A stretch of 64,000 bases of DNA from Candidatus Babeliales bacterium. Its GTDB lineage: Bacteria; Babelota; Babeliae; Babelales; JANWKD01. This document shows, one piece after another, positions 10,224 to 55,341 of the stretch. The position numbers were made by a program, and so were the translations under genes. The stretch spans positions 352,001 to 416,000 of the forward strand of contig CAVRJM010000001.1 of NCBI GenBank assembly GCA_963722075.1. The letters run 5' to 3'. Numbering within the stretch: position 1 is the first letter of the stretch; every line of letters starts with the position of its first letter. A model generated the notes under the pieces. That model was given only the letters and a program-made list of their open reading frames with translations, searched no databases and had not been told where the DNA came from.

Positions 10224-11096
10224 ATGATGAAAAAGCTTATAATACTTAGTTGCCTGCTGCCATTCTGTGCGCAAGCAATGGTGTGTGATTATCAAACACG
10301 CCAACAAATTAACAAAGATAAAAAAGCACCATACCAGATATATGAAAATATTCAGAAGTTATTTATACCCGTTTTAAATGCAAATATGAAAAATTATTAC
10401 TATTTTACCGAAGCATGGAAAAGCTGGGACGCTTATACTGATTGTGCTCATGAATTAATAACGAATTCGGAATTCAAAGAAGATAAAGATATCTTAGTGT
10501 TTGCTAAATATAGAATTAAAGATACCGTCGAAAAAATCAATGGAGTACCTGACCAAACAAGATTAAGAAAAATGTTAAAAGAATTGGCAGATATTTATAG
10601 CAATGCATTGCAGGTTATTAATGAAGAAGTAGATACGCCGTTAGACTGGGAAAGCGCTGTTTTAGCACAGTCTGCAGAAGATATTTTCCCCCATTACAAA
10701 ATAAGCTTGTTATTGCCCTATGAAGAATTAAAGAAAAAAAGTGCATTTGATAATAAAAAAATTCTTGATTTTGTGAAGAATCTTGAAAGAATCGCATCAG
10801 GAGAAGATGAACAACAAGCTATTAATAATTTTGCCGACAAAATAGATAAACTTATTTACCGTTTAGAAGCAGATAAAAAAAGAACCTGGTATAGTAAAAG
10901 AGAACTGCAGAAAGAAATTAATGACTTAGAAGAAATTTTTGATGCACTTAATGAACGTTATATTATTGAAACGAGTCTTATGCGCGAAAAAATTTCCTTA
11001 TCAACAGATTTAGATGCGCTTATAATTTTATCCGAAACAAAAAATCTTATAACTATTGGGCAAAAGGTAAAGAATTTTCTAGATTCACGTAAGTAA
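10224..11096 (+). CDS. Secreted helical protein, tandem paralog 3 of 3
   Basis: MVCDY, SWDAYTDCA, TPLDWESAVLA, LIILSE. Confidence 0.75.
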   Translation: MMKKLIILSCLLPFCAQAMVCDYQTRQQINKDKKAPYQIYENIQKLFIPVLNANMKNYYYFTEAWKSWDAYTDCAHELITNSEFKEDKDILVFAKYRIKDTVEKINGVPDQTRLRKMLKELADIYSNALQVINEEVDTPLDWESAVLAQSAEDIFPHYKISLLLPYEELKKKSAFDNKKILDFVKNLERIASGEDEQQAINNFADKIDKLIYRLEADKKRTWYSKRELQKEINDLEEIFDALNERYIIETSLMREKISLSTDLDALIILSETKNLITIGQKVKNFLDSRK

Positions 11097-11119
11097 ATGA
11101 ATCCTTATAGCAAAAAGAC

Positions 11120-11149
11120 AAAAAGCGCGGAAAATTTTCCGCGCTTTTT
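11120..11149. terminator. Bidirectional intrinsic terminator
   Basis: AAAAAGCGCGGAAAATTTTCCGCGCTTTTT between convergent genes. Confidence 0.85.
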
Positions 11150-11177
11150 CGTTTAAATTATATCTACGTTGAATGCT

Positions 11178-12758
11178 TTATGAGAATGCGAAGCCGCCTT
11201 TAATCCAAATTCCCCATTGGTCAAGTGCAAAATTATGATCGCCTGAGAATTCTACTTCGCCGCCTAACCCTAAAAATGGGGTATAATCACAATTTTCCCA
11301 CGCATAGCTGGCATGAGCAAAGAATTTATGTGAAATAGCTCGCGGATGCGCTGCTGAATCAATAAATAGTTGGCTATTATTAATGAAGACAGCCGTGCTA
11401 TCAAATGGGCCACCGGTTCCATTAATGTGAGCAGTACTTTGTGTCTGAAGAGCTTCAGGGCCCGCAGAGAGTGTTTGTCCTTTTAACCCATAGGTATTTG
11501 GTTGAATCATTTCGATATTGCTAATTTTATCCTCGCTACGAGTCCAGAGATTGTAACCAGTATCAAGCGTAAAACCACAACGATAATAATCAAAAAGCAA
11601 TGCAGCTTCAATATGATAAGAATTACGGACTTTACATTGCAATGCTAACACATTGGGACCAAATAAAATTTCAGACAGCGCTGTTGGGGTGGCACCACCG
11701 GTAAATTTTTTAATTAATAATCTACTGCTACCAATATTTTGCGTGCCATCGGCATTAGCTAAATCAAATATTCTGCGCTGACGGCCTTTGAGCACGGTAT
11801 AAATATCTGCTTCTGCCCATACGCTAAATGCTGAATCGCAGCAGTTATTCCAGAATTCATAGTGTGTAGAAAAGCCAGCACCTACTTCATAATGCTTACC
11901 ATTACCAGCAACTGGTTCAAAAAGGAACACGGCATTCGGACGATTACTGGAAGGGAAAACAACACGGAAATCAGCGCCTAAATGGTAACATTCATGGCAA
12001 AGGAAATTATATCCAAGCGCTGCTTCAATATCACCAAGTCGTGTTTTAGTTTGTTTGCCGCTTGCTTCACTTGAACCGCTCAGTGCATCAGATGTATCAA
12101 CGCGACCAAATTGTAAAACTTGTTTTAAAAGGGGAAAATCTATGGTATCTAATGTTTGCCCATTATATGCTGTTAAAATACTGCCAATGGGTGAAGGGAG
12201 GGCGCTCGTATTTCCCAATTCATTTGCTGCGATTGTAGTACCTGAACTGGTAATGTTTTCATCAAAATTAACGGTCCAACGAGTCCATACTAATGGTGCA
12301 TGGATATCTAAATAAAGACCACAAACCCATTCATCTAAATTAAGTCTAAATTGAATATCTAAAAGCGCATTTTCTACCCGCGGAAGTGCGGTGAGGGTTC
12401 CGTTAAAGTTATCATTAAGGAAAAAATTTTCTGCAAAGACATCAACGCCCGTACCGCCTGCAGCGCCAAATGTCATCATGTTGGTACCGTTATAGAAAAG
12501 GTATTTTCCTATTTCATCGCGATCAAATGAACGCGTATACTCAGGGGTGAAGGACAGAAATCCATTGAGACAATCTATGTCGCAGGGTACAAGAAATTCT
12601 GTTGTTCCTACTAAACGTCTTGCTAGATTAGACCATTGTGGTCGTTGGCTGAAAAATGTATGGCCAAATGTTTTACTAGATGGATCATCAAGTGCATATA
12701 TAAATCCAAAAGAGGTACATAAAAAGAGAAATAAAAATTTTTTAATAGTTGGTTTCAT
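11178..12758 (-). CDS. Putative outer-membrane beta-barrel protein, paralog 2
   Basis: Signal peptide; FG.TFF, IGKYLF, FEP..GNG..YEVGAG shared with 6508..8016; C-terminal WIKGGFAFS. Confidence 0.7.
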   Translation of the reverse strand: MKPTIKKFLFLFLCTSFGFIYALDDPSSKTFGHTFFSQRPQWSNLARRLVGTTEFLVPCDIDCLNGFLSFTPEYTRSFDRDEIGKYLFYNGTNMMTFGAAGGTGVDVFAENFFLNDNFNGTLTALPRVENALLDIQFRLNLDEWVCGLYLDIHAPLVWTRWTVNFDENITSSGTTIAANELGNTSALPSPIGSILTAYNGQTLDTIDFPLLKQVLQFGRVDTSDALSGSSEASGKQTKTRLGDIEAALGYNFLCHECYHLGADFRVVFPSSNRPNAVFLFEPVAGNGKHYEVGAGFSTHYEFWNNCCDSAFSVWAEADIYTVLKGRQRRIFDLANADGTQNIGSSRLLIKKFTGGATPTALSEILFGPNVLALQCKVRNSYHIEAALLFDYYRCGFTLDTGYNLWTRSEDKISNIEMIQPNTYGLKGQTLSAGPEALQTQSTAHINGTGGPFDSTAVFINNSQLFIDSAAHPRAISHKFFAHASYAWENCDYTPFLGLGGEVEFSGDHNFALDQWGIWIKGGFAFS

Positions 12759-12918
12759 CTACAAAACTCCTTATTGTTTTTAAAGCTGGGCATACCATCG
12801 AATGTTTTCATTGCATTTGATCACACGCTACTGAATTTCCAATGATTCGTCAATATTGAAAGAGGTATAATTTATGGTATGGTTGAGTTTTGTAAAAACA
12901 TTATAGATTTACGCAAAC

Positions 12919-13065: not shown

Positions 13066-13095
13066 TAAATAAATTAACATTCTAATTTTGATTTT

Positions 13096-13869: not shown

Positions 13870-13882
13870 GTAGGAATATAAT

Positions 13883-19485: not shown

Positions 19486-20118
19486 ATGCAATCAAACATC
19501 TTGCTCCTTGCTTCAAAATCACTCCAACGCCGAACGGCACTAGAACAAGCATGCATCCCTTTTAGAATTATCGAACAAAATGCTGATGAAAGCATTTGTG
19601 ATTATACGCTTCCATTCGGATCCCTTCTAGAATCAATTGCTATTCATAAAATGAATCATATTGTTATGCATGCTAATCTTGAGCATCCTGTTCAATTTGT
19701 TTTGACCGTGGATACCATGGTGCAAGATGGTGCGGGGAAAATATATGGTAAACCCTCATCTAAAGAAGTGGCACGATCATATATTAAAGCATTGCGTGAT
19801 AATCCGGGCCAGGTAGGCACTGCCTTTTGTCTTGATAAAAAAGAGTATGGAGATAATAGGTGGCATACAGTTGATCGCATTACCAAATTTGTGAGCGCCG
19901 GTTATTCGCTCGACATTCCCAATCATTGGATCGATACCTATTTTGATCAAGTGCCCGAATATCTTTCTATTGCCGGTGGACTTACTATCGAAGAATATGG
20001 AGCTCAATTTTTAAAAACCATTGACGGCTCTTATGGATGCGCAATAGGGCTTCCGCTTTATGAATTACGAGAATCATTAGATTTAATGGGATTTTTTACA
20101 TTGAAAAATTCAATCTGA
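19486..20118 (+). CDS. maf: Maf family nucleotide pyrophosphatase, paralog 1
   Basis: LLASKSLQRR, DE, TVDT, GKP, GSY..IGLP. Confidence 0.85.
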   Translation: MQSNILLLASKSLQRRTALEQACIPFRIIEQNADESICDYTLPFGSLLESIAIHKMNHIVMHANLEHPVQFVLTVDTMVQDGAGKIYGKPSSKEVARSYIKALRDNPGQVGTAFCLDKKEYGDNRWHTVDRITKFVSAGYSLDIPNHWIDTYFDQVPEYLSIAGGLTIEEYGAQFLKTIDGSYGCAIGLPLYELRESLDLMGFFTLKNSI

Positions 20119-20197: not shown

Positions 20198-20974
20198 ATG
20201 AAAAATAGTAGCGTTTTAATACTTGCGTTCTTATTATATGGCGTTATGCAGGCTATGGAAGCACCAAAAGGTAGCGCATGCCGCATGACTTCATTGGTAA
20301 AGATATCTGCATTGGAGAATATTATAGGCCGATTTTTAGGGCAAGTCTCACCTTCGCCTTCTTTAGAAGATCTATTCAAAGTTTTAGATATTAAATGCAA
20401 TTATAAAGATCATGATCCATTTGGCTTTGTAGCTACGAGTCAACCATCTTTATATATTCTATTAAATGTTCTTATCGATCAAAAAATAGCGGGGAAATTG
20501 CCACATGTTTCAATCGATACTATTAAAGAATTAAACAATGTTTTTAAAAAGAAAACTACTGAATCATTGCGCCATATTGATAATCAAATTGAACGGTTAA
20601 AAAAAGGGGAGGCATCCTTTAAAGAAGCGCAATCACAAGGATTAGTTATTTCTGAAGAAGCGCCTCACATTGATCCATTGAGCAGCGATACTTTACGGAT
20701 TATTGAGCGCGTTGTTAGAAGGGGAGCCCCTTTTAGATTCAGAGAGTTTCTTAAGGAATTTAAGGTAGATTGTAATAAGTTTTTACCCAATGATTTTGAA
20801 TTGCCTGCGGTTTATTTGTTGATGAAAAATTTATTGTTAGGTAAAACATCACGCTATACCTATAAGAAATTAAAGAGCATTTCTATTGATAAAGTTATAG
20901 AATTAAATAATTATCTCAAAGTAATTGCGGTATATTATCAGCATGAATTAGATGATAAAATAAAAAGTTTATGA
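20198..20974 (+). CDS. Secreted hypothetical protein with internal duplication
   Basis: Signal peptide MQA|ME; SIDTIKELNNVFK repeated as SIDKVIELNNYLK. Confidence 0.75.
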   Translation: MKNSSVLILAFLLYGVMQAMEAPKGSACRMTSLVKISALENIIGRFLGQVSPSPSLEDLFKVLDIKCNYKDHDPFGFVATSQPSLYILLNVLIDQKIAGKLPHVSIDTIKELNNVFKKKTTESLRHIDNQIERLKKGEASFKEAQSQGLVISEEAPHIDPLSSDTLRIIERVVRRGAPFRFREFLKEFKVDCNKFLPNDFELPAVYLLMKNLLLGKTSRYTYKKLKSISIDKVIELNNYLKVIAVYYQHELDDKIKSL

Positions 20975-21767: not shown

Positions 21768-22314
21768 ATGAATAGCACTATTCAAGTAGTTTTATTTTTT
21801 AGTTTTATAACTTTTGGGGCTACTCAAATTGTATCGATGGAAAATAAACCAGTTTCTTCTAATACACATCCTATTAACTGGGCAATTAATTTGTCATAGG
21901 ATACGATCGAACATAGTTGGGGAACTTGGAATGATTTTTTTCGTGAACAAATTAATCCATTACTAAATCGTAACCTATTTGATAAAGCCATAAAAAACGG
22001 ATCGTACCAAACAATGTCAGCCTATGAATTTTTAGCATTAAATGTTGAAAATCAACGTCTTAATAAATATAAAAATGCAAAAAATGCGCAAGAAGCATAC
22101 CCCGAAAATGACCGTCCTCGTGGAAAAAAAGATATCGATAGCGTTAATTTTTTGAGAACACGTGCCTGTGTAAGTCCGATTGTGGTTTGCAATAGTAACT
22201 GATAAAGAAGGTCTAATACATTATATTAAACTTGATGATGTTCATCGGCTAATAGCGGCAGCAATAAAAAAATCTCCCATTAAAGTCTTTTTTATTGATT
22301 TAGAAATTAAATAG
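21768..22314 (+). pseudogene. Disrupted secreted protein with ParB/sulfiredoxin-like motif
   Basis: Signal peptide, in-frame TAG at 21897-21899, frame continues into ORF 22014..22202, then a frameshift near 22185 restores SPIVVAIV...LDDVHRLIAA, stop 22312-22314. Confidence 0.7.
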
Positions 22315-33586: not shown

Positions 33587-34096
33587 ATGTATAGTATATA
33601 TAAACGCATTTCTCTGATTTTTATAATCAATTTTGGATTATATTGTAACGCGATGGAAAAGTCTGAATTTCAGGATTTGATATTTGCAATTGCAGATAAA
33701 ACAAGTGAACTTGTATTAGATAGTATTATTCAATATTTTCAAAAATCAGCTATTGGTTATAATCAAGATTCAGTTATGCTTCGCAATATGTCTCTAAAAT
33801 TAACTAAAAAAACTAGTCTCGAACAAGATTGTGTAGATGATAAGCGGGTTACAACCGTATCTAAACTCTCTAAAAAAATTACGAAAAAAAGAAGAAAAGA
33901 ATATAGTGCCTGGGCTCAACATTTAACAGAAAATAAAGAACAATATCATTTAAATTTAATGAAATCATTTCGTTTATTCTTGGTAAATAGCTCATTAGAA
34001 GAAGATTATATTAAGTTTTTCTCCCGTTCAATTTTAAATATTAAAGAAGAAATTGAAAAAGAGCACTCGATAGAAAAGCCGAAGGAAAAAGAATAA
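33587..34096 (+). CDS. Secreted hypothetical protein with basic patch
   Basis: ATG 33587 follows AAGGAG; signal CNA|ME; KKITKKRRK. Confidence 0.7.
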   Translation: MYSIYKRISLIFIINFGLYCNAMEKSEFQDLIFAIADKTSELVLDSIIQYFQKSAIGYNQDSVMLRNMSLKLTKKTSLEQDCVDDKRVTTVSKLSKKITKKRRKEYSAWAQHLTENKEQYHLNLMKSFRLFLVNSSLEEDYIKFFSRSILNIKEEIEKEHSIEKPKEKE

Positions 34097-34097: not shown

Positions 34098-35963
34098 TTA
34101 TATATCTTCCAGCGGTTTATAAAGCACAATCTCTTTTATCTTATTTTTAGGATCAGTTAGGCGTATGCAAAATTGATTTTCAGTATATTTTCTGTTGGTT
34201 ATAATTATGTCTGATAACGACTCAAATTCTTTGGTTTCATATACCTGTTCTTGCATCGAAGGGAATTGTACCTTATATGCATTACCCATAAGAATCTCGG
34301 AAACTTCTATATCATCTAACTTATTATAGCCGCGATGATAGCAAATTCCTCTTTCATCAATACTGCAAGAAAAGCATACTAATTTCTTCTTATTTGAATG
34401 GTAATTAATTTCTCCAATAAGTAAGTATCGCATTTCTTTTTGCCCATTATCTTTTGTTATTTCTTGTTGTTGCCCAATAGAGAGCAAGAAATGATCGATT
34501 AATGGGTTAATGGTATGATATTCGATAGAGCTGTTACTAGGTTTGTTAGCAGAAATAAAATCTTCATCGAACCACCGTAAGATACGGACATGGTAGGTAG
34601 GTAATATAAGCTGTTCAACTTCTTTTTCTTGAATAGGTTCTGGAATTGGAGCTTCGACAGTAGCTTCCATACTAATGATTTCTTCGGGTTCTTCATCACG
34701 TGTAGTAGTTGCTTTTTTTGAATGGGGATGCTTTTGTTTCTTCTTTTTTTTACTTGTACATCTGGTTGGTGTTGGTTTTTGATGATATTTTTTATCAATC
34801 CATTCATCAATAGGTTTTGTCTTACTTTGTGTAATTAATTCATCAGGTAATCGCTCAAACAATTCGTTACGTTTTAAGATTTTTGTTTTATATTTTTTTA
34901 TAGCTTCGAGTCGTTCTTGAGATGGCAATGTTTTTAAAATTCTATTTTTCTCATCCATTATTTTTTTATAAAGCGCAGCATGTTGCTGATGAGTAGCGGA
35001 TATAGTTTTAATAAGTGAAGCAATATGATCATTGTAATAAACGTTCTCAGCTGTTAATAAGCAATCGTGATTATTATTGAGAAATCCATAGCCATGTTTC
35101 ATTGCTTTGAGTTGTGCAAAAAGAGATAATACTTGCGGCATTACTTCTGTAACTGCAGAATAAATACCGTGCTTATCAAGAATTTCATTTATTTTTAAGA
35201 GTAGATCAGTTTGTTTAATTATGTTATTTGCAGTCTGAACACTAACACGAAGAGGTTGCGCGGTGTCGTCGATGAATAGTAATGAAAATAAAAAGATATC
35301 AGTAAAACGTGAAATGTCGTCGGCGCAAAGGGTCATATAAAAAGTGTTATAGATTTTTTTTGCTATTATTTTGACTTCTTCATTTTCATTATCTAGTAAT
35401 TGGGTAAATAATCTTTTATAGCGGTTTTCATTTGAAGCGTTAAATTTTTGTGGATTATTTGATAAGGGAATTAACTGGAATCCTATCGAGCGACCTTCGC
35501 ATGTGGTTATAGGAATATGCTTTTTTATAAGTTCTTCATTTTCTGGAATAATAGGAACGCTTTTGTGGTAATGTGGTTTTGGTTCATTTGATTCGTTAAA
35601 TGGCGGCATCACTGCAGTTATATCGAATCCAAATATTTCATTTGGAAAAGAAGATGTTAAGGCCTCTTTAGTGTAATAAAGTATTTTTTGAAAAAAGGCT
35701 AACGATTCATGACGCATATACAATAAATTGGTTAATAGTTGTAGTTTTTGTAAGTAGGATGGATAATCTTTCTTTAAACCAGAAAAATGTAATAATTTTG
35801 GAATATTAATTTCATCTACTTGGGGAGCATGGCTTAAAAGTGCGGGGAAGACTTGAGGTATAATTTCAACCTGTTTATTTTCTTCAGGGGCTTCCATTGC
35901 ACTGATGTTTAATAGAGTGCATGATAAGAGTAGAATTACTATATTTTTATATATTTTTTTCAT
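34098..35963 (-). CDS. Secreted hypothetical protein with Lys-rich NLS-like segment
   Basis: Signal ISA|ME; SKKKKKQKHPHSKK. Confidence 0.75.
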   Translation of the reverse strand: MKKIYKNIVILLLSCTLLNISAMEAPEENKQVEIIPQVFPALLSHAPQVDEINIPKLLHFSGLKKDYPSYLQKLQLLTNLLYMRHESLAFFQKILYYTKEALTSSFPNEIFGFDITAVMPPFNESNEPKPHYHKSVPIIPENEELIKKHIPITTCEGRSIGFQLIPLSNNPQKFNASNENRYKRLFTQLLDNENEEVKIIAKKIYNTFYMTLCADDISRFTDIFLFSLLFIDDTAQPLRVSVQTANNIIKQTDLLLKINEILDKHGIYSAVTEVMPQVLSLFAQLKAMKHGYGFLNNNHDCLLTAENVYYNDHIASLIKTISATHQQHAALYKKIMDEKNRILKTLPSQERLEAIKKYKTKILKRNELFERLPDELITQSKTKPIDEWIDKKYHQKPTPTRCTSKKKKKQKHPHSKKATTTRDEEPEEIISMEATVEAPIPEPIQEKEVEQLILPTYHVRILRWFDEDFISANKPSNSSIEYHTINPLIDHFLLSIGQQQEITKDNGQKEMRYLLIGEINYHSNKKKLVCFSCSIDERGICYHRGYNKLDDIEVSEILMGNAYKVQFPSMQEQVYETKEFESLSDIIITNRKYTENQFCIRLTDPKNKIKEIVLYKPLEDI

Positions 35964-40721: not shown

Positions 40722-42095
40722 CTATTCATATTTATCATCATAATATTCTTCAGATTCAGATTCGGATGATGTAACTTCCGGTTCATCCCATATAATGCTA
40801 ATTTGCTGTTCAGTATCAGCAAGCAATAATGATGGCATAGGCTTCCAAGGCTGTTTTTTTAAAAATGATACTAAGAATTGACCAAATTGTTTATCATCTT
40901 TAGTATGCATTTTTTGTTCCTGAATCTGTTTTAAAAGATAGGGAATAAGATGGGATGGCGCTATCGTTAAATGGTTATCAGATTCATACCATGGTGGATA
41001 GTAGGTGTCGATTTCATTTGTTCCACATTCAAAAGCTTCTTCCTTATCATTGTCTATAAGGCTAAAAAGGGGGTAATGGAGCATGGATAATGAAGAATGT
41101 TTTTTAACTGTTCTTAATATACGTTCGGTACTCGTATGGCATGAATCAATAGCAACCAGATCTGGGCGCAGCGTATTAAAATAAGTAAATAATTGGTTAA
41201 TATGAATTTCTGAAAGTCCCAACGTTATGGGTATGGGTTTTATTCTATTTGCTCTGCTCCCATGGCCCGTTAAATAAAATGCCCAGCGGTACTCTTGATT
41301 ATTATTATGTGTATTAATAAGGGTTGATAATTTAGAAACCCAATTATTTGAATCTGGTTTAATAGGTTCTTGTAAAGGAGACTGTATGGGGGTGCAGGTA
41401 TCTAAATTGAGTGATTTGAAATCATTTTTTTGAGTAAGGCAATAAAGACCAAGATGGGTATCGTACCAATCCCATTTAGAAAGCCCCACTATAATTTTAA
41501 AAAATCTATAAAACGCAAGTAATGAAGAAAGTTCTTCTTTTAATACCGTATATTCATTTCCGCTTTCATCTTTTACTATTTCGGTAGCTTCTTCTAGTAA
41601 TTGATAATGGGAACAATTATATTTAGTTATAGGTTGATCAGTAATCTCATTTGGATGTTTAAAGATCATTACGCGATTTGGTGGCATTGCTCGAGCAATT
41701 CGCTTCCCTTTTGGTAAAAAAATGTTATGGTAACTGGGGTTAATAATAATTTGTTGTAACGGGTCTTCAATATTGTTTTCATTAAAGAAATTTTGTGCTT
41801 CTTTATATTCTTTTTTTAATGCTTCAAGAAGTCCGTAGGTAATAAAAATATGATGAGCATTACCGGTACAAAGTTGATCTATTAAGCTCTTTCTAATTAC
41901 ATTATTATTATCTATATTATGAGGATTCTCATCTTTTGTAGCTTCGCCCGTATTAATAAAAAAGAAGGCTCTAATCGGTTGATGTGAGGATACGGTATTT
42001 GTCTCTTCTTGCATACTGTAGGTAAAACCACCGCAACATATGATAAAAAGAGTACACAAAAAATTAATTTTAACATTTCTATAAGAATTATACAT
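40722..42095 (-). CDS. Secreted protein with clan CD (caspase-like) His-Cys motif
   Basis: Signal peptide; FYLTGHGS ... LVAIDSCH; acidic tail. Confidence 0.55.
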   Translation of the reverse strand: MYNSYRNVKINFLCTLFIICCGGFTYSMQEETNTVSSHQPIRAFFFINTGEATKDENPHNIDNNNVIRKSLIDQLCTGNAHHIFITYGLLEALKKEYKEAQNFFNENNIEDPLQQIIINPSYHNIFLPKGKRIARAMPPNRVMIFKHPNEITDQPITKYNCSHYQLLEEATEIVKDESGNEYTVLKEELSSLLAFYRFFKIIVGLSKWDWYDTHLGLYCLTQKNDFKSLNLDTCTPIQSPLQEPIKPDSNNWVSKLSTLINTHNNNQEYRWAFYLTGHGSRANRIKPIPITLGLSEIHINQLFTYFNTLRPDLVAIDSCHTSTERILRTVKKHSSLSMLHYPLFSLIDNDKEEAFECGTNEIDTYYPPWYESDNHLTIAPSHLIPYLLKQIQEQKMHTKDDKQFGQFLVSFLKKQPWKPMPSLLLADTEQQISIIWDEPEVTSSESESEEYYDDKYE

Positions 42096-42993: not shown

Positions 42994-44304
42994 TTAATGA
43001 GTTTGTTTTTTATAGTTTTCCTGTAGCAGAGAGGTAATTTCAACATTAGAATGGTTAATGGTTAAATCATTCAGAGTAATAGTAGCACCTTTACGCAGTA
43101 ATAATTTAATTATTTTTACGTAATTATTATACTGATAATGATCGTGTGTAGGTATGTTTTCCAGCGCAAATGTTAAAGCGGAGTAATTAAGATTTTCTTT
43201 ATAGTTAATATCGGCTTCGCATTTAATTAATTTTTTTACTGCTTCTCTTTGACCGTGAATGCATGCAAATTGTAATGCTGATAGCCCGTTTTCAGCAGTT
43301 GTGCAATTTACATCGGCGCTTCCTTGATGAACAATATGATGTATATTTTTGGGGTTATATAGAATTGCTACAAATAAAATATTAAAAGGATCTTCTGAAA
43401 AAGCCTCGGGTACTTCGGACTCATTATTGTTTCCTTCCAAATCATTTGGGTGAAAGTTTTGATTAAAATCGAAGCCCGCTTCATACATTCGTTTAAAATT
43501 ATGTGGTTTTTTAAAATCAACAATTATTAATAAATCTTCAAACCATAACGTTGCGCCTTTTTGTATAAGCGAGACACCTAATTCAGGGAATTTTTTAAGC
43601 GATATGCCTAAAGCGTTTTCACCGATTTCATTATCTTCAAGTTGTAATTGAATATCATCGCCAAGAATAGCAATTATCTTTCTAGCCACCATTTCATAAT
43701 TATGTTGTAATGCAGTTAGTAAAGGGGATTTATTAAATTTATCATAATTGCTTAGTAATGGTATTGGACTTGCGTTATTTGATAATGTTTCCATTACCTC
43801 TAAAAAGGCAATAGCACGCTTTTGTTTACCATGTGCGATACAATGATGAAAGGCATTCTGTCCGTCATTATTTACGGCGGTTATATTATCCATAGTATTA
43901 TTATAAATATTTGACAAAATGAATGCTTGTAAATCTGATGTGGTTGATAAATAATGTAAAACGGTATTGTTAAAACGAGAGCGATAATTATTAAATTCAT
44001 CTTGTAATTCAATAGGAAGTTTAGCATATGCTTCTGCCAATGGAACAAGTTTTTTTGGATATAATTTAAATACTATTGAGGGTTTTTGCTTAAAATATTT
44101 TATTAATTGGGTAAAAACTAATTCTTTTAAACTTTTGACTCTATTTGACTTTTTATATTCAGTTTCTTTAATTTTTTTTATAATTTTTGTTGTAATACTT
44201 TTTTCTTCTTTAGTTTCTTCTCGTGATCTTTTCATTGCCCATGCAGGGTAAATTACAAAAGATATTAATAATGAAAATAGACCGAATTTAATTTTATGAG
44301 TCAT
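42994..44304 (-). CDS. Secreted ankyrin-repeat protein with BC/SOCS-box-like motif
   Basis: AWA|MKRSR; SLKELVFTQL...KLPIEL; GQNAFHHC, KSPLLTAL, GLSALQFAC. Confidence 0.85.
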   Translation of the reverse strand: MTHKIKFGLFSLLISFVIYPAWAMKRSREETKEEKSITTKIIKKIKETEYKKSNRVKSLKELVFTQLIKYFKQKPSIVFKLYPKKLVPLAEAYAKLPIELQDEFNNYRSRFNNTVLHYLSTTSDLQAFILSNIYNNTMDNITAVNNDGQNAFHHCIAHGKQKRAIAFLEVMETLSNNASPIPLLSNYDKFNKSPLLTALQHNYEMVARKIIAILGDDIQLQLEDNEIGENALGISLKKFPELGVSLIQKGATLWFEDLLIIVDFKKPHNFKRMYEAGFDFNQNFHPNDLEGNNNESEVPEAFSEDPFNILFVAILYNPKNIHHIVHQGSADVNCTTAENGLSALQFACIHGQREAVKKLIKCEADINYKENLNYSALTFALENIPTHDHYQYNNYVKIIKLLLRKGATITLNDLTINHSNVEITSLLQENYKKQTH

Positions 44305-44334
44305 GATTTTATTTTCTCCATTTAAGCGATTGTA

Positions 44335-45135
44335 TTATTTTTTTTCTAATAGGGCGGAAATTTTTTTGCCTACTTTCATTCGTACTGAATATTTGGGATA
44401 GGTAATTATGTAAGGATCGCCAAATTTGTCTATTTGTTGTTGCATAAAATAAGCATTTCCCTCTGTATATTCTTTACCCTTCATGCAGCTCAAAATATCT
44501 GCCCGTAATTCTTGAAACTGAATTAATTTATTAAGTGGGTTATTTTTCTGATCAGTAATTGGTTTATAAGGAGTTGAGTTGCGTATAAAATAACGCGTAG
44601 AATGATCATGATGAATCAAATGAATAAGTTCATGTCCTATAATAAACTGTTGTCCTTCTGGCGATAACTTTTTGAACATACTTTCGTTTACAAAAATAAT
44701 GCTATCAGTAGAAGAAGCAGGTATTTCAATATTCCATGGTATCATTTCAACCTGAGTGCTATCAACGTTAAATTCAGCCATAATATCCTTAATCAATTGG
44801 ACGGTATCTGCCGAAATGAGTTGATTAGAATTATAATGTTTTTTCATATCTTGAATACTTGCCCAATAATCAGAATGAGGATCATTGCGTAATTGTTGGC
44901 ATTGATTAGCAGTCATTGGATATACAGCGCTAATTTCTTGCCATAATGCTGTTTGGGTGGTATCAAGCCATTCGAGTAGTTGATTGTCAGTAGTAACGTG
45001 ATCAAAGTTGACGGCATTAATGTTGAAATGTTTGGCTATTGAAGGTTCTATTTTTGTATTTTGTACATGCTTGGATGCATATATAACAATAATTCCTATC
45101 AAAATTGTGGGATAAAGTATGTATTTGAATTGCAT
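44335..45135 (-). CDS. HEXXH metallopeptidase (M48-like), paralog 2
   Basis: FIIGHELIH, QELRAD, TYPKYSVR. Confidence 0.75.
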   Translation of the reverse strand: MQFKYILYPTILIGIIVIYASKHVQNTKIEPSIAKHFNINAVNFDHVTTDNQLLEWLDTTQTALWQEISAVYPMTANQCQQLRNDPHSDYWASIQDMKKHYNSNQLISADTVQLIKDIMAEFNVDSTQVEMIPWNIEIPASSTDSIIFVNESMFKKLSPEGQQFIIGHELIHLIHHDHSTRYFIRNSTPYKPITDQKNNPLNKLIQFQELRADILSCMKGKEYTEGNAYFMQQQIDKFGDPYIITYPKYSVRMKVGKKISALLEKK

Positions 45136-45168
45136 GATTTTATTTTCTCCATTTAATTAATAATTTTA

Positions 45169-46560
45169 TTATTGATTCTTTTCTAATCGTTCAAGCTCTT
45201 GTTTTTGATAATACTCTTGTAGAAGATCAGATAATTTTTGATCTGCTTGTACAACTTCCTTATCATATGCTGAGATAGTAATGCCTTTGCGTAGTAACAA
45301 CTTAATTATTTTCAAAAGAGTTTCTGAGTCAGCAGATGTATCTTCGATATATTGTTCAAGAATGAAACTCAAAACGGTACCGCCAGTAGATTGTTCTTCA
45401 TTAAGATTTGCGCCTTCTTTAATGAGTTTTTTTATGGCAGAAATGTTATAGGTTTTAGCTGCAAATGATAAAGGGGATTCGCTATCAGCGCAGGCGTTAA
45501 CGTCGGCTTTGCCCTCACGTACAAGGCGAGTAATATTTTTGGGTTTATGCATAACTGCTAACATTAAGCAAGTAAACTCGCTATTACAGGGCTCATCTAT
45601 TTCATTAATATCGGGAATATAAAGGGCGCTTTGATCGAAATCAAAGTTAGCTTGATGGAGTTGCTTAAATAGAAGAGGGTCATCTGTTTGAGCTATAGCT
45701 TTTAAGTGGTTAAAATCTACTTCTGCCCCGTTTTTAATAAGTAATGGTACTAATCTTGGGACATTAACGATTGCTGCAATGAGAGGGTTTTGCCCACTTT
45801 TATTAGGTTTATTAAGATAATTGCTCAATTGATCAGGGTTATTGCCAACAATAGTAATAATTTTTTCAGCAATTTTTTTATAACCGTTTAATAACGCCAA
45901 TAATAAGGGATGATTGTTGTTGGGGTTAAGGACGTTGTCAATTAAACAGGCAGCATTGAATTTTACCATACCCTCTTCTTCTTCTTGGGCTAATTGTTCT
46001 TTCTCTATTTGTTGGGCGACATCTAATAAGGTATCTGCAATAGCTGGTTGTCTTTGTATAAGGCGAGAATATAATGCTGTATGCCAGTTGGGTACTATAC
46101 TATATTCTGTTGCGCTATTTTCATCATTGTTATTATTGTTTTCATTGTTATGAGTTTTGGTAGTAGGAATTTGATTAGATTCAATGGCTAATTTGATAAA
46201 TGCCTTTATATCTTGTGGATCAAATAATTTATGTAAAAGACTGGAATCTTTCTTATGAGAATGTTGATTGCATTCTATCCGTAATTCCACTGGTAAGCGA
46301 GGGTATGCTGCTGCTAATGTGCCCGGTATTCTTTTAAAATATTTTACCAATGCTTTTTTTGCCAATTTTTTTAAGGTTTTTATTTGTATTGGTTCACTGA
46401 GTTCTTCACTAAGGCATTTGGCTTCTTTCGCGCTTGAGCTTGCTCTATTGGTACCTCGTTCTAATTCATGTCTGGGTCTCTTCATTGCCCATGCAGAATG
46501 AGTTGCACAAGAAAGAAAGGCAAACGCTATTACTATATTAAGTTTAGTTTTAAAAATCAT
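45169..46560 (-). CDS. Secreted ankyrin-repeat protein with BC/SOCS-box-like motif
   Basis: AWA|MKRPR; TLKKLAKKAL...RLPVEL; HPLLLAL, GQNPLIAA, ESPLSFAA; paralog of 42994..44304. Confidence 0.85.
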   Translation of the reverse strand: MIFKTKLNIVIAFAFLSCATHSAWAMKRPRHELERGTNRASSSAKEAKCLSEELSEPIQIKTLKKLAKKALVKYFKRIPGTLAAAYPRLPVELRIECNQHSHKKDSSLLHKLFDPQDIKAFIKLAIESNQIPTTKTHNNENNNNNDENSATEYSIVPNWHTALYSRLIQRQPAIADTLLDVAQQIEKEQLAQEEEEGMVKFNAACLIDNVLNPNNNHPLLLALLNGYKKIAEKIITIVGNNPDQLSNYLNKPNKSGQNPLIAAIVNVPRLVPLLIKNGAEVDFNHLKAIAQTDDPLLFKQLHQANFDFDQSALYIPDINEIDEPCNSEFTCLMLAVMHKPKNITRLVREGKADVNACADSESPLSFAAKTYNISAIKKLIKEGANLNEEQSTGGTVLSFILEQYIEDTSADSETLLKIIKLLLRKGITISAYDKEVVQADQKLSDLLQEYYQKQELERLEKNQ

Positions 46561-46585: not shown

Positions 46586-47401
46586 TTAAGTAGTTGTATT
46601 ATTTTTTTCTAAAAGTCCCACAATCTTTTTACCAATTGCCAAACGTGCTGATGGCTTTGGGTGCGAACTTGATTCTTGATCGCCATATTTTTGGATAAAG
46701 TGAGCAAAGAATTCAGCGGCACCTTGTGCATATTCAGTTCCGTGTAAGCTCGCTAAGATATCAGCACGCAATTCCTGAAATTGTGAAAGTTTGTGTAGTG
46801 AGTTGGGATCGGCATTAATTGCGGCTTTTTCAATAAAATAATTAGCTGAATGATCTTTTTTAATTAAATGTATCAACTCGTGGCCTATGGCAAATTTTTG
46901 TGCAGCAGGTGAAAGCTCAATAAGTAAGGGTTCGTTAATGAAAAGTAAGGTATCGCATGCCGCCGCTGCTGAAGGAAGATTCCACGCATATATAGTAATT
47001 CCCTTAGGATCGATGCCAAAATCCTTCATAATAGTATGTACTAATTGTATTGTTTGTTCTGATACTTTCTTATCTAATGCCGCATAATCTTTGATCATAG
47101 AAGTTATATAGGTAGTATACTCTTCTATAGAAGTTGTTTTTAATGCTTCGCATTGTTCAAATGAAAGATTTATAGCTTTTTGTAGCTCATGCCATACTGT
47201 TTGTTCCTCTTTAGTAAGCCATTCTTGATAATAAGTAAGTGAAGGGGCTTCTAGAAGGGCATTTTGAGCCAAATTAAACGTTTTAACAATTTTTGGCTCT
47301 ATAAGGGTAGGTTTATGGTCAGATTTAGCCCAAATTAAGGCTGCGATGGCTGCAAGAGCGCATAAGCCATTATATAAGAATAATTTATTGATTTTTACCA
47401 T
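46586..47401 (-). CDS. HEXXH metallopeptidase (M48-like), paralog 3
   Basis: FAIGHELIH, QELRAD, SSHPKPSARL; start at the second Met follows GGAG. Confidence 0.78.
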   Translation of the reverse strand: MVKINKLFLYNGLCALAAIAALIWAKSDHKPTLIEPKIVKTFNLAQNALLEAPSLTYYQEWLTKEEQTVWHELQKAINLSFEQCEALKTTSIEEYTTYITSMIKDYAALDKKVSEQTIQLVHTIMKDFGIDPKGITIYAWNLPSAAAACDTLLFINEPLLIELSPAAQKFAIGHELIHLIKKDHSANYFIEKAAINADPNSLHKLSQFQELRADILASLHGTEYAQGAAEFFAHFIQKYGDQESSSHPKPSARLAIGKKIVGLLEKNNTTT

Positions 47402-47485
47402 ATTAACTCCATTTTTTAACATTTTAGCTTATTTTTAGTATAAATATTAATTTATATTTGTCAATTTTTATACCTAATGGGTGTT

Positions 47486-47977
47486 TTATTGGTAAGGGTA
47501 GCTAATTTTTAAAAAAGAGGTGTAATATCCTATGGCAAGGATTGTTGATAGGCTTAATGAGGTCCATATGATGGTAGTATATGGCTGTTTTTTGTACCAC
47601 GGTTTTTGTAACCCCATTTTTGCCTTAACATGATGTTTTTTAGCCTTCCATCCAGCAGCATATACCGTATATAATAACGGGTTGATAGGATTGATTCTTG
47701 TAAGATCAAAAATGCGATTATTAATGCCATTACCAAACATTCCTACTTTATTGAATAGTATGTTTTCTATTGCTTTTCTATGTTCGGGTGTTAAATGATT
47801 ATTTTGATCAGATTGCTTTAAATATATATGCGGTGTAACTTCTTTATCTTCCGGAGAATGTAGTATGAAGGAGCCTTCGCACTTAGGATTATAACCAATA
47901 TATTTTGTTTCCATGCAGATTATTACGGTGCTTATTAAGAGGGAAATAGTTATTAAAGAGTTTTTGAACAGTTTCAT
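47486..47977 (-). CDS. Hypothetical protein with signal peptide and C-terminal TM
   Basis: IIC|ME signal, C-terminal hydrophobic helix. Confidence 0.65.
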   Translation of the reverse strand: MKLFKNSLITISLLISTVIICMETKYIGYNPKCEGSFILHSPEDKEVTPHIYLKQSDQNNHLTPEHRKAIENILFNKVGMFGNGINNRIFDLTRINPINPLLYTVYAAGWKAKKHHVKAKMGLQKPWYKKQPYTTIIWTSLSLSTILAIGYYTSFLKISYPYQ

Positions 47978-50605: not shown

Positions 50606-50625
50606 TGACTCCGTAAATAAAAAAG

Positions 50626-50664: not shown

Positions 50665-50785
50665 AAGGGTTTTCACACTTCATTAGGGAAACTTGCTATG
50701 CTAATTTACCATTGGTTACTATTAATAAGGGAGAGTGGTTAAAATCAAGTAAATAAAAAAGCAGGTAAATAAAAAGGATCGAACA

Positions 50786-51489: not shown

Positions 51490-53391
51490 ATGAAATTTTG
51501 TAAAATCTTATTACTGTCTATAGGTTTGTTGGGACTTTTATGTCCTCAATTTATGGAAAGCATGGACCTAAAGTCATATGCTATTAAGCATTCATCAGCC
51601 CTTGTATCACATATACTGAACCATAAATACACTTACTTAGGAATAGGCGCATTAGCGTGCCTTGGAGGTATATATGGTGGTTATAGCTTATACCGTAAGG
51701 CTTACCAGCAACCTCAGTCTCAGCCTCAAATAAAAAAGGAGCTTCGTAGCTTATTATTGGGGCGTCCTTTGATCGTTGATAAAAATGACTTGTTGTCTAA
51801 ACGAGAAGAACGTAATAAACGGTTGTTGTTGAATGAAATGAGCGGGATAATTAATGAATATAAAAATTTAAAAAAATTTATTCTTCCTACTAATGAATAT
51901 CCAGCATATAAAATAAATAAAATGGTGCCATCTACCACGCCACTTGCCTATGAAACGCTTGATAAATTGGTTGATCTCTTTTTTTGCATGATGCAAAGAA
52001 GTGTTTTTAATAAACAAGATTATTGGATAAACCATACCAATCCGCAACAGTTTCTTAATCATCTTAGTAACAATGAAGAAGAACCTCAATTTAATCCGTT
52101 TATGCAAAAAATAGTAGTAAACCCAGGATCCCAAATAGCTTTTCAGGGTGATTTGCATGGTGATGTGCATTCGTTACTAGCAAGTTTGGATGCGTTAAAA
52201 GAAAAAGGATATTTAGATGAAAATTATAAAATAATAAAAGATAATTTTTATTTGGCTTTTTTAGGTGACTATGTTGATAAAGGCATATACGGCTTAGAAG
52301 TTATTTCGGTAATTATGTACCTAAAATGTCTTAACTTTAATAAGGTTCTTTTAGTGCGTGGGAATCATGAAGATTGGTATATATCGGGGACTGACATGTT
52401 TGACGCTGAAATATGCCGCAAGTTCCAGCTTGATGAAGATAATGATATTGGCAATAAGTACGCCAATATTACCAAAAAAATAAAAAAGATGTATGAATGC
52501 TTGCCAGTGGCTATATTTTATGGAGTGCGTGATACCACCAATACAACCAATTATCTTTTGTTATGCCATGGAGCAGTTGAATGGGGTGTAAATACTCATA
52601 ATCTTCTGAGTCATAATAATAGCGTTGCATTTGAGCAAATAAAATCGCTCAACCGCAAAACAGAGTTAAATAATTTAATGCACAATGATGAAATTTTTAA
52701 AAAGTTAGATGATTTTGTGCATCTCGATGAGCGAAATAATACGGCATTCAACTTACATAGTCCCGATTATGAAGTAAGCAGTATTGCAGGAGGTATTGAT
52801 GATGGTAAGGCTATCTCTTTTGTATGGGGTGATTATATTGTAAAATCTGATGCCGAGCGCAAATCTGCTACCAGTAATTTTAAATTTATTTTGCCTGGCA
52901 GGTTATTTCAGATTGGGGAATATTTCAATTGGATGGTATTAAAAGGATATAGCACTCCTCATCATAAAGTTCGTGGAGTATTTCGCGGGCATCAGCATGC
53001 TGCTGAGATTGAAAATCCAATGATGCAAAGTATTTTCAAAAGAATCTCTTTTGATTCAAAAACATCGGGGTCAGAGATTGATGAATATTCGCATGATTAC
53101 AAAGAAAATGCAGGAGTGAGTAAGCTATGGCTTTCAAGCGCGCCGCCAAATACGTATGCATTATGGGATAATATTGTCTGCACCTTTAATGTAAGCCCAT
53201 GTACTACTTGCCAACAGGCGGGGATTATCAAAAAAAATGATAAAACTAAACACAAGTTTAATTTTACAACACTTGGGATGCTTACCACTGCATCAGCATT
53301 TGAAGATTGGAAATTAGACGTAAGTCGCATAAAAATATTTAATAAAAATGTTTTTCAAGAATTGCAGGCCCAAAACAATAAGCAACAATAG
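51490..53391 (+). CDS. Secreted PPP/calcineurin-like metallophosphoesterase, paralog 1
   Basis: GDLHGD, GDYVDKG, RGNHE, LCHG, RGHQH; signal peptide plus one TM. Confidence 0.9.
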   Translation: MKFCKILLLSIGLLGLLCPQFMESMDLKSYAIKHSSALVSHILNHKYTYLGIGALACLGGIYGGYSLYRKAYQQPQSQPQIKKELRSLLLGRPLIVDKNDLLSKREERNKRLLLNEMSGIINEYKNLKKFILPTNEYPAYKINKMVPSTTPLAYETLDKLVDLFFCMMQRSVFNKQDYWINHTNPQQFLNHLSNNEEEPQFNPFMQKIVVNPGSQIAFQGDLHGDVHSLLASLDALKEKGYLDENYKIIKDNFYLAFLGDYVDKGIYGLEVISVIMYLKCLNFNKVLLVRGNHEDWYISGTDMFDAEICRKFQLDEDNDIGNKYANITKKIKKMYECLPVAIFYGVRDTTNTTNYLLLCHGAVEWGVNTHNLLSHNNSVAFEQIKSLNRKTELNNLMHNDEIFKKLDDFVHLDERNNTAFNLHSPDYEVSSIAGGIDDGKAISFVWGDYIVKSDAERKSATSNFKFILPGRLFQIGEYFNWMVLKGYSTPHHKVRGVFRGHQHAAEIENPMMQSIFKRISFDSKTSGSEIDEYSHDYKENAGVSKLWLSSAPPNTYALWDNIVCTFNVSPCTTCQQAGIIKKNDKTKHKFNFTTLGMLTTASAFEDWKLDVSRIKIFNKNVFQELQAQNNKQQ

Positions 53392-53703
53392 AAATTCATT
53401 CATATGGCGAATTTTATACGCGTAATGATTTTAAGTTTTTAAATTCGATAAACACATCTATTTGAAAATTTATAATTAGTATTATGGTAATTTGCTAATC
53501 AGATTTTGTTGTTTAGAATTAACTGATTAATAATATTGCGTATCAAAATTATGTTTTTCATTCAAATTTAATCATATTTTATATTTGTTTTTCATTTTAG
53601 CGATCCAGTGCCGCAAACAGAAGATGTTTGACGGCTTGTTGCTTTTGGCGTATCGTTAATTGCCAATAATCGTCAATTACTGTATCAAAGAAAGGATTTT
53701 GCT

Positions 53704-55341
53704 ATGCAATTATATGGAATATGCTTACTAAGTTTATTGCTGTCATCATTATTAACATCATATGGTATGGAGGCTGATACAACGCCAATTGATATGGCTG
53801 ATATAATAGATGAGATGAAAGCAGTTATTCCTCAATATGCTAAGCTGGATAAGTTCATGATGGATGGCAATTATTTTCGCGCCTCTGCTTTTAAAAGTTA
53901 TATCCCAAAAAAAACGCCACTATCGTACGACCTTTTAGATAAACTATTTACTTGTTTTTTTTATAGGATGCAAAATAATCCTGTTAGCCAGCAAACAAAT
54001 TGGAGCGATAATACTAATCCTCAAGAATTTTTTCATTCAATTCTTTCTGCTAAAAAAGAAGAAGAAGTGCCCTTTAGGCCTTATATGCAAAAAATGGTAG
54101 TTGCGCCGGGGTCAGAAAAAAATTTTCAAGGTGATTTGCACGGCGATGTTCATTCATTATTGGAAACCCTCCAAGGATTGCAAGAAAAAGGATATTTAGA
54201 TGATAATTACAAAATAATAAAAGATAATTTTTATCTTGCTTTTTTAGGGGATTATGTAGATAAGGGTATCTATGGCATAGAGGTTATTTCATTAATTTTA
54301 TATTTAAAATGTCTCAACTTTGATAATGTATTGCTGGTACGTGGTAATCATGAAGATTGGACCATTTGCGGTAATGAAGCATTTGGAAGTGGGGAGCTTC
54401 CTTTAAAATTCCCTAAAGAAAATGATGAACTGCGTAATAAAATTCAAAAAATGTATGAATGCTTACCGGTTGCTATATTTTATGGGGTCCCAGATGCCAA
54501 CAATATAACTAATTATGCTTTATTGTGCCATGGCGGGGTAGAGATGGGAGTTGATACCCATAATCTTCTTCCTCATCCCAAAGCTATTACATTTGAACAA
54601 ATAAAAACTATTGATCGCGTTACTCAAGCAAATAAATTAAAGGCGCTAGAGCGTTATAAGCAATTAATTGCATTAAATGCTTGTGCAGTAGAGGCTTTAG
54701 AAAGAGAAATTTTTAGAGTTAATAGTTTTGTTCCTGAAATATTACCAGACGTTGGATTTGCATGGAATGATTATTATGTTAAGCCCGATGACAAACGGAA
54801 TAATGAGGATGGCTTTAAGTGGGCAAAAATTTATCCTGGCAGAGGTATAATAATAGGAGAACTTTTTAATCAATTGGTTTTAGAAGCATATAGTACAGAG
54901 CATCACAAAGTGCGCGTCGTAATACGCGGTCATCAACATAATAATGCGCATATGGATGAAATGATGCAAAGTGTTTTCAAGAAAAAATCATTTGGTCAAA
55001 AACAGACCAAAGAATCAGCGATTGATCTTGCATCGAACGATTATTATGAAAATAAAGGGGTGAGCAAATTGTGGCTTTCTCAATCGCCTCCTCATGCGCA
55101 CTCAGTATGGCCTAATTTGGTATGCACAATCAATGTTAGTCCCTGCACTTTTTACCAAAATGTGGGCATTGTAAATAAAGGTGTTCTCTCTAAAATTAAA
55201 CATAAATTTAATTTTGCTACGGTAGGAATTTTAAAAACTGCAGCATCATTTGAAGATTGGAAGTTAACAGTAGTCCGCAAAGAGATATTTGGCAAAGATG
55301 AATTCCAATTATTACAAAATAAAAAAAATAGTAAAAATTAA
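53704..55341 (+). CDS. Secreted PPP/calcineurin-like metallophosphoesterase, paralog 2
   Basis: GDLHGD, GDYVDKG, RGNHE, LCHGG, RGHQH; signal peptide. Confidence 0.9.
   Translation: MQLYGICLLSLLLSSLLTSYGMEADTTPIDMADIIDEMKAVIPQYAKLDKFMMDGNYFRASAFKSYIPKKTPLSYDLLDKLFTCFFYRMQNNPVSQQTNWSDNTNPQEFFHSILSAKKEEEVPFRPYMQKMVVAPGSEKNFQGDLHGDVHSLLETLQGLQEKGYLDDNYKIIKDNFYLAFLGDYVDKGIYGIEVISLILYLKCLNFDNVLLVRGNHEDWTICGNEAFGSGELPLKFPKENDELRNKIQKMYECLPVAIFYGVPDANNITNYALLCHGGVEMGVDTHNLLPHPKAITFEQIKTIDRVTQANKLKALERYKQLIALNACAVEALEREIFRVNSFVPEILPDVGFAWNDYYVKPDDKRNNEDGFKWAKIYPGRGIIIGELFNQLVLEAYSTEHHKVRVVIRGHQHNNAHMDEMMQSVFKKKSFGQKQTKESAIDLASNDYYENKGVSKLWLSQSPPHAHSVWPNLVCTINVSPCTFYQNVGIVNKGVLSKIKHKFNFATVGILKTAASFEDWKLTVVRKEIFGKDEFQLLQNKKNSKN

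What the first reader, a model, noticed from the sequence alone, without database searches (positions are those of the whole stretch)
10224..55341. About twelve mostly unrelated exported proteins have Met as the predicted first mature residue
Seen: signal peptides end just before Met in AQA|MV (10224), MQA|ME (20198), IVS|ME (21768 pseudogene), SIP|ME (22372), CNA|ME (33587), ISA|ME (34098), TYS|MQ (40722), AWA|MK (42994, 45169), IIC|ME (47486), MES|MD (51490) and SYG|ME (53704). The barrel and Cys-rich envelope candidates lack it. Known: Met is stabilising in the eukaryotic N-end rule, and Met-Glu/Asp/Gln N-termini are NatB acetylation substrates. Inference: cleavage yields host-like N-termini, or +1 Met is a sorting tag for an unrecognised Sec-dependent effector export route. 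A third option is that signal-peptide cassettes were fused onto complete genes.
Basis: partly seen in the sequence, partly recalled or inferred. Interest (0 to 1): 0.75.

Follow-up and report, generated by a model that had tools for sequence, protein, structure and literature searches.

The report
Methionine-first rule for secreted parasite effectors
In this bacterium, assigned to the protist-parasite phylum Dependentiae, about two hundred exported proteins, above all those with eukaryote-like domains, have methionine (mostly followed by Glu, Gln, Asn or Asp) right after the predicted signal-peptide cut while its envelope proteins almost never do, which likely gives them a host-style first residue that would resist degradation inside the host cell.

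Summary
All 12 sites are present. A Met-blind cleavage predictor puts Met at +1 in 97 of 472 exported proteins of the genome (21 expected), versus 3 of 151 in other bacteria, where it recovers the known Bacteroidetes Q-rule. The Met tracks protein class: 37 of 55 eukaryote-like proteins (ankyrin, WD40, C2H2, J-domain) versus 2 of 45 envelope proteins. Residue +2 is D/E/N/Q in 152 of 216, the NatB-type set; small and hydrophobic residues are depleted. The Met is not an internal start (no ribosome-binding site) and not a relic of cassette fusion. The motif is enriched across much of Dependentiae, unevenly, and recurs in at least one intracellular alphaproteobacterium. Best reading (0.55): Sec-exported effectors are selected for a mature N-terminus that escapes the host N-degron pathway. 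A sorting tag remains possible (0.25), but many ankyrin proteins lack the Met, so it is not obligatory. Cleavage, delivery and acetylation are predicted, not shown. My paper searches found no description. It resembles the Q-rule and the PEXEL mature N-terminus but is neither.

The parts
10224..11096 (+). Exported protein of unknown family, AQA|MV; +1 ATG 10278-10280; atypical +2, and look-alike neighbours 8231 and 9310 lack the Met
20198..20974 (+). Exported protein of unknown family, MQA|ME; +1 ATG 20255-20257
21768..21899 (+). Broken gene: signal peptide, IVS|ME (+1 ATG 21837-21839), stop after 43 codons
22372..23628 (-). Ankyrin-repeat protein, SIP|ME; +1 ATG 23566-23568
33587..34096 (+). 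Exported protein of unknown family, CNA|ME; +1 ATG 33653-33655
34098..35963 (-). 621-aa exported protein of unknown family, ISA|ME; +1 ATG 35895-35897; ~30%-identical homologs in G003 and G004 keep M-E behind different signal peptides
40722..42095 (-). Exported protein of unknown family, TYS|MQ; +1 ATG 42012-42014
42994..44304 (-). Ankyrin-repeat protein, AWA|MKRSR (NLS-like start, inferred); +1 ATG 44233-44235
45169..46560 (-). Ankyrin-repeat protein, AWA|MKRPR (NLS-like start, inferred); +1 ATG 46483-46485
47486..47977 (-). Small exported protein of unknown family, IIC|ME; +1 ATG 47912-47914
51490..53391 (+). Calcineurin-like metallophosphoesterase with signal peptide, MES|MD; +1 ATG 51562-51564
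53704..55341 (+). Calcineurin-like metallophosphoesterase with signal peptide, SYG|ME; +1 ATG 53767-53769
6508..8016 (-). Control: exported protein ending in Phe (barrel-like, inferred), no junction Met
11178..12758 (-). Control: related barrel-like exported protein, no junction Met
5867..6193 (-). Control: Cys-rich exported protein, ASA|WP, no junction Met

Best explanation
Exported proteins of this bacterium that carry eukaryote-like domains have Met, usually followed by Glu, Gln, Asn or Asp, directly after the predicted signal peptidase I site, and this is likely selected because the processed protein would enter the host cytosol with a host-style N-terminus that is predicted to escape the N-degron pathway. 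Steps: (1) Sec export and cleavage by ordinary LepB at small-residue|Met (predicted; -1/-3 pattern shown). (2) Passage through the outer membrane, likely by the T2SS-like apparatus (genes shown, role inferred), then into the host by an unknown step. (3) In the host, a bulky +2 residue would stop Met aminopeptidase removing the Met, a non-hydrophobic +2 would avoid the Met-phi degron, and M-D/E/N/Q is the NatB sequence class, so acetylation is possible (inferred from literature). Envelope proteins never meet this pathway and keep ordinary +1 residues (class split shown). Effectors of type III/IV systems keep their own start Met or its processed form, so this problem is specific to Sec-processed effectors (my reasoning).
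For: Class split with classes set from Pfam before looking at Met: loose rule 38/55 vs 6/45, p 2e-8; strict rule 37/55 vs 2/45, and 25/43 vs 2/45 after merging similar N-termini; blind predictor 16/53 vs 1/39. +2 is D/E/N/Q in 152/216, small in 8%, L/F/I/W/Y in 11%, against 24-40%, 27-46% and 13-25% at +3 to +9. These are the residues that MetAP, Met-phi and NatB rules single out (PMC8037982 passages and Table 1; PMC9692967 passages). Met is kept within families while the signal peptide, -1, +2 and downstream sequence diverge. Independent host-directed marks lean the same way: NLS-like motifs 23/191 vs 12/281, CaaX-like ends 7/216 vs 1/323, p 0.008. Apparent convergence: alphaproteobacterium G260, which has an ATP/ADP translocase, has 16 of 22 pattern matches as in-frame signal peptide+Met against 1 of 28 for an Asp control (read by eye). 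Its Met proteins include two LRR proteins and two SAM methyltransferases, and no envelope housekeeping family among 15 scanned. The three phytoplasma SAP54 sequences seen read G|MD or G|MN, while surface Amp mostly reads A|D (PMC8026896 supplement).
Against: No cleavage site, delivery, half-life or acetylation was measured. 18 of 55 eukaryote-like proteins lack the strict motif and several appear to start with destabilising residues (E, Q, D, K, L, N, by eye). In five ankyrin-rich but motif-poor relatives only 5 of 23 ankyrin proteins start with Met, about 7 with destabilising residues, and 3 of the 5 Met are followed by I or L (by eye). NatB is ribosome-tethered and acts on nascent chains. 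M-N and M-Q can lose their Met in yeast if not acetylated. E far exceeds D (81 vs 15), which NatB does not predict and a binding pocket might. Five of the CaaX-like ends lie in one locus and the signal was not seen in relatives (0/93). Phytoplasma Tengu starts A|D and SAP11 starts with A/S/T.
Confidence: 0.55

Rival explanations
1. Met-Glu/Gln at the mature N-terminus is a sorting signal read in the periplasm or at the vacuole membrane by the machinery that selects host-bound cargo from other Sec substrates, as the mature PEXEL N-terminus does in Plasmodium.
For: The same class split. The sharp E>Q>N>D order fits a pocket. Nearly 40% of genes have signal peptides, so cargo selection is needed. 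A T2SS-like cluster is present (GspC-like, two GspD-like secretins, PilM-like, GspK-like; all below curated cut-offs). Precedent: PMC10653839 abstract.
Against: Not obligatory: ankyrin proteins without Met are common here and in relatives, and G185 paralogs with nearly the same signal peptide read FG|MD and FG|IN. Families f4 and f16 are near background. Recurrence in an unrelated class fits a shared host pressure better than shared machinery (inference). There is no dedicated signal peptidase: motif-rich G166, G176 and G197 have one lepB match.
Confidence: 0.25
2. The Met protects the protein on the bacterial side or in the vacuole (against aminopeptidases, or as substrate of a bacterial modifying enzyme) or simply speeds LepB cleavage, in the manner of the Q-rule.
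For: The Q-rule stabilises extracytoplasmic proteins (PMC10653852 abstract). Several GNAT proteins with signal-like N-termini exist in the genome.
Against: A periplasmic or peptidase benefit should apply to envelope proteins too, but they show background Met (1/39). The Q-rule holds in all compartments (PMC5837995 passage).
Confidence: 0.1
3. The Met is the old start codon of a complete gene onto which a signal peptide was fused or grew from upstream DNA.
For: A few acquired enzymes do look like this: YbhB (GAP|MK) and a LigD domain (GVS|MP) have the Met where the catalytic protein would begin (by eye).
Against: +2 is D/E/N/Q in 152/216, against 117/489 at the genome's own starts and 23% at Arabidopsis starts; M-A is 1/216 against 21.5%. 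SD-like sequence precedes 1.4% of +1 ATGs, against 4.3% of internal ATGs. All pairs of signal peptides identical at 10 or more of 15 positions are same-family except one tandem pair. Acquired enzymes as a class lack the Met (3/52). A neutral relic would not persist in diverged families.
Confidence: 0.07
4. The ATG is a second translation start that yields a cytoplasmic isoform.
For: It is an in-frame ATG.
Against: SD-like motif before 3 of 216 +1 ATGs against 51% of the true starts of the same gene set; the purine-rich upstream profile is absent.
Confidence: 0.03

Closest known systems
Bacteroidetes Q-rule (Gln after the SPase I site, cyclised by glutaminyl cyclase; PMC5837995, PMC10653852)
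   Same: A lineage-wide bias for one residue directly after the signal peptidase I site, linked to protein stability.
   Different: The residue is Met, with a D/E/N/Q second residue. It is confined to effector-like proteins rather than all compartments, is uneven across the phylum, has no known bacterial modifying enzyme, and the likely reader is the host.
Plasmodium PEXEL mature N-terminus (xE/Q/D; PMC10653839; motif details partly recalled)
   Same: Cleavage exposes a defined N-terminus with an acidic or amide second residue on proteins bound for a host cell, distinguishing them from resident proteins.
   Different: Bacterial Sec/LepB rather than ER plasmepsin V; no RxL motif; the first residue is fixed as Met.
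Eukaryotic N-degron pathways and NatB substrate class (PMC8037982, PMC9692967)
   Same: The N-terminal sequence class M-D/E/N/Q, with small and hydrophobic +2 residues avoided.
   Different: Here the Met is exposed by a bacterial peptidase, not by translation initiation; acetylation would have to be post-translational.
Phytoplasma SVM-signal effectors such as SAP54 (PMC8026896 supplement)
   Same: Sec-processed effectors of an intracellular bacterium; the SAP54 sequences seen start M-D or M-N.
   Different: One signal-peptide family (PF12113), not hit in this genome; SAP11 and Tengu do not start with Met; wall-less bacteria.

Membership tests
Signal peptidase I substrates | n/h/c-region with small residue at -1 and small or aliphatic at -3 | tested here: met
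   Logo: -1 A31/S17/G15%, -3 L/I/S/A/V; two lepB genes. Prediction only.
Signal peptidase I substrates | Cleavage demonstrated at that bond | not testable with these tools
   Needs N-terminomics.
Bacteroidetes Q-rule | Gln is the dominant +1 residue | tested here: not met
   Blind +1: Met 97, Gln 27 of 472.
Bacteroidetes Q-rule | Bias holds in all compartments | tested here: not met
   Envelope class 1/39 blind, 2/45 strict.
Bacteroidetes Q-rule | Dedicated periplasmic modifying enzyme | not tested
   No glutaminyl cyclase search was run; none appeared among the Pfam hits of the signal-peptide set.
PEXEL/HT motif | RxL upstream of the cut | tested here: not met
   Arg is not among the leading residues at -3.
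PEXEL/HT motif | E/Q/D as second mature residue | tested here: met
   E81, Q32, D15 of 216.
NatB substrates | Met followed by D, E, N or Q | tested here: met
   152 of 216; specificity from PMC9692967.
NatB substrates | N-terminal acetyl group present in vivo | not testable with these tools
   Needs mass spectrometry.
Phytoplasma SVM signal (PF12113) | Match to the SVM signal profile | tested here: not met
   No PF12113 hit at E<=1e-7 among the scanned signal-peptide proteins; short profiles can be missed at that threshold.

The most novel reading that the evidence does not exclude
Unrelated intracellular bacteria that push effectors through Sec (Dependentiae, some translocase-bearing alphaproteobacteria, perhaps phytoplasmas) have converged on an 'M-rule': signal peptidase manufactures a eukaryote-style Met-Glu/Gln/Asn/Asp N-terminus that the host acetylates and spares, and that also serves as the tag separating host-bound cargo from envelope proteins. 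A two-residue read-out would then label hundreds of unknown proteins per genome as host effectors.
Probability: 0.3. Interest if true: 0.88.

Novelty: new variant of a known kind. Interest (0 to 1): 0.72.

Why it matters
Dependentiae devote about 40% of their genes to signal-peptide proteins, most of unknown function (44% in C. destructans, PMC6561590 passages), and it is open which of them reach the host and how. The motif gives a simple sequence marker: 124 of 387 unknown exported proteins here carry the strict form, making them priority effector candidates. It also turns a vague question into one-residue experiments, and suggests that host protein-turnover rules leave a genome-wide imprint on bacterial signal-peptide cleavage sites.

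Tried and rejected
Dedicated signal peptidase: G000 has two lepB genes, but motif-rich genomes often have one; rejected. An unsupervised EM version of the cleavage model drifted into the h-region and gave a weaker signal (57/429); the fixed prior model was used. Cys content does not differ between classes. The scan of all genomes also hit its limit and mostly gave single orthologous genes, for example in Pelagibacter; it served as outgroup DNA. Gammaproteobacteria: none of 301 genomes reached 20 matches per Mb. Among alphaproteobacteria the densest genome (G542) was background on inspection, so the 8-of-9 translocase association among density picks is partly an AT-rich small-genome effect. The SVM family search in 251 Bacilli found nothing and had no positive control. 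A Listeria N-end-rule paper that I recall was not held and is not used as evidence. The atlas search gave only 'Pseudomonadota' for G260. Chlamydiae and Amoebophilus/Cardinium could not be sampled. No structure or complex prediction was run.

Full report
Source. The window lies in a 1.47-Mb, 35% GC genome with 69 ankyrin-profile matches and ATP/ADP translocase-like genes. Loci named Babeliales match its proteins at up to 76-83% identity. I assign it to Dependentiae (Babelota) by inference; an earlier scan note agrees.

Observation. All 12 junctions are in the sequence. I called 1,238 genes with my own ORF caller and scored signal peptides with Met given zero hydrophobicity. Among 473 soluble signal-like proteins, Met precedes the first charged residue in 19.7%, against 1.8% background and 3 of 56 multi-pass membrane proteins. 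A von Heijne-type predictor that sees only positions -12 to -1, with Met masked, places Met at +1 in 97 of 472 (21.2 expected). On 73 outgroup loci it gives 3 of 151 (3.0 expected), with Gln the top +1 residue (26 of 151), as the Q-rule predicts for the many Bacteroidota loci in that set, which is a positive control. Three window genes (21768, 47486, 53704) were outside the genome-wide set and were checked separately.

Which proteins. 558 of 561 signal-like proteins with at most one further TM segment were scanned against Pfam (the first 650 residues; one had no locus, and two were left out and counted as unknown). Classes were set from the hits before scoring Met. I dropped 21 cytoplasmic false positives, none of which scored as Met-type. 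Loose rule (Met after A/G/S/C/T/P in the cut range): eukaryote-like 38/55, envelope 6/45, enzymes 5/52, unknown 167/387; the envelope figure shows the loose rule has roughly 10% false calls. Strict rule (+2 D/E/N/Q/K): 37/55, 2/45, 3/52, 124/387; 25/43 vs 2/45 after merging similar N-termini. The 216 Met-type proteins fall in 159 of 409 homology clusters, and 129 of 350 singletons carry it, so paralogy does not explain it. Within families the Met persists while everything around it changes, and homologs of 34098 in two relatives keep M-E at about 30% identity. Exported proteins conserved across the order mostly lack it (44 of 60 cross-genome pairs lack it in both).

A two-residue signal. Residue +2 is E81, Q32, N24, D15, K14 of 216. 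D/E/N/Q is 70% at +2 and 24-40% at +3 to +9; small residues are 8% and L/F/I/W/Y 11%. Published rules: Met is removed before small residues, Met-phi can be a degron, exposed D/E/N/Q/K/R are destabilising (PMC8037982, passages and tables), and NatB prefers Met-E/D/N/Q on nascent chains (PMC9692967, passages).

Rivals tested. An internal start is excluded by SD-like motifs before 1.4% of +1 ATGs against 51% of true starts. Cassette fusion is disfavoured by the +2 composition (unlike own starts, 117/489, or Arabidopsis starts, 23%; M-A 1/216 vs 21.5%) and by the lack of shared signal peptides between unrelated genes. A dedicated peptidase is not needed.

Range. A DNA pattern for signal+A/G-M-E/Q/D/H matched all 230 Babelota genomes searched, 3-114 times each. 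In G000, 45 of 72 matches were called Met-type genes, and other codons at +1 gave 5-7 or 11 for Asp, so low counts are background. The median is 13 per Mb, 72 genomes reach 20 or more, and counts correlate with ankyrin candidates (Spearman 0.46; kin are not independent). Families f4 and f16 and some f12 genomes are near background. Direct sampling of 19 relatives gave 15 of 205 blind (5.2 expected). Of 401 alphaproteobacteria the highest count was 24. By eye, G260 has 16 of 22 in-frame signal+Met matches vs 1 of 28 for Asp, G417 6 of 16 vs 2-3 of 9, G455 6 of 24 vs 4 of 25, G427 2 of 15 and G542 0 of 12. In 60 kb of G260 chosen away from the matches only 2 of 15 signal proteins were convincingly Met-type, and seven such genomes pooled (partly chosen for matches) gave 6 of 103 vs 2.8, so the effect there is weaker. 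Fifteen G260 Met proteins gave 2 LRR, 2 methyltransferase, 1 S8, 1 S9 and 9 unknown. None of 301 gammaproteobacteria stood out. Unpublished genomes G276 and G677 contribute one row each to these tallies; no other claim rests on them. In the phytoplasma supplement (PMC8026896, parts 1, 4, 11 and 18 of 19), 3 of 3 SAP54 seen start M-D/N, 24 SAP11 start A/S/T, 7 Tengu start D, and most Amp start D: suggestive only.

Against the best reading. One third of eukaryote-like proteins lack the motif. In five ankyrin-rich, motif-poor genomes 5 of 23 ankyrin proteins start with Met, about 10 with A/S/G/V and about 7 with destabilising residues (by eye). E far exceeds D. The CaaX signal (7/216 vs 1/323) is clustered and was not replicated. 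The rule is therefore a strong lineage-dependent bias, not a requirement.

Mechanism. Shown: motif, class split, +2 preference, retention in families, T2SS-like genes. Inferred: cleavage by LepB, secretion, entry to host cytosol, escape from N-degron recognition, acetylation. Confidence 0.55, against 0.25 for a sorting tag; the two can coexist.

Prior art. The C. destructans paper notes signal peptides on 44% of genes and 78% of ankyrin proteins and contains the word methionine 0 times (PMC6561590, passages). Searches listed no paper describing this rule; most subscription papers and the bioRxiv supplements were not searchable. The Q-rule papers (passages, abstract) and the PEXEL paper (abstract) are the nearest analogues. 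Verdict: real, apparently undescribed, a new variant of the '+1 residue rule' kind; interest 0.72.

Noticed in passing
G000:C1:812523-826230 (L041): Five small Met-type exported proteins in one region end in Cys-x-x-x, four of them CaaX-like (CLVS, CILF, CIIN, CLIS); a WD40 protein at C1:980472 ends CLLS. Candidate host-prenylated effectors.
   Followed up: partly
window 42994-46560; G000:C1:975617, 977783: Mature N-termini MKRSR, MKRPR and MKRKA look like nuclear localisation signals placed at the very start of ankyrin and WD40 proteins.
   Followed up: partly
G000:C1:1151734-1160265 (L059): T2SS-like cluster with GspC-like, two GspD-like secretins and a PilM-like gene; similar secretin pairs occur in Babelota loci L235 and L258.
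   Followed up: partly
G000:C1:326673-327548 and 1297744-1298607: Two closely similar signal peptidase I genes; all four family f1 genomes searched have two matches.
   Followed up: partly
G000:C1:973394-982682 (L049): Tandem signal-peptide WD40 proteins, one with a Skp1 POZ domain; elsewhere UCH, SET, DOT1, MavL-like and PLA2_B proteins carry signal peptides but not the +1 Met.
   Followed up: no
L028, L022, L060, L064, L030, L055: Many normally cytoplasmic enzymes (GNATs, thioredoxin reductases, glutamine synthetase, NDK, ATP-dependent ligase, ferritin) have signal-like N-terminal extensions; some may be upstream mis-starts.
   Followed up: no
L406, L422, L427 (G185): Ankyrin paralogs with nearly identical signal peptides read FG|MD versus FG|IN, suggesting gain or loss of the Met by a point change.
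   Followed up: no
window 23916-24842 and 25929-27002; 19486-20118 and 24907-25524: A pair of endonuclease/phosphatase-like genes (one with a signal peptide, one without) and a pair of similar Maf-like genes (name recalled, not from a call).
   Followed up: no
window 4667-5467, 44335-45135, 46586-47422: Three related membrane-anchored or exported proteins with an HExxH motif, interleaved with the ankyrin genes.
   Followed up: no
L279 (Nanoarchaeota record): Two neighbouring exported proteins read VVA|ME and VFA|MD; the genome as a whole is not enriched (9 matches).
   Followed up: partly
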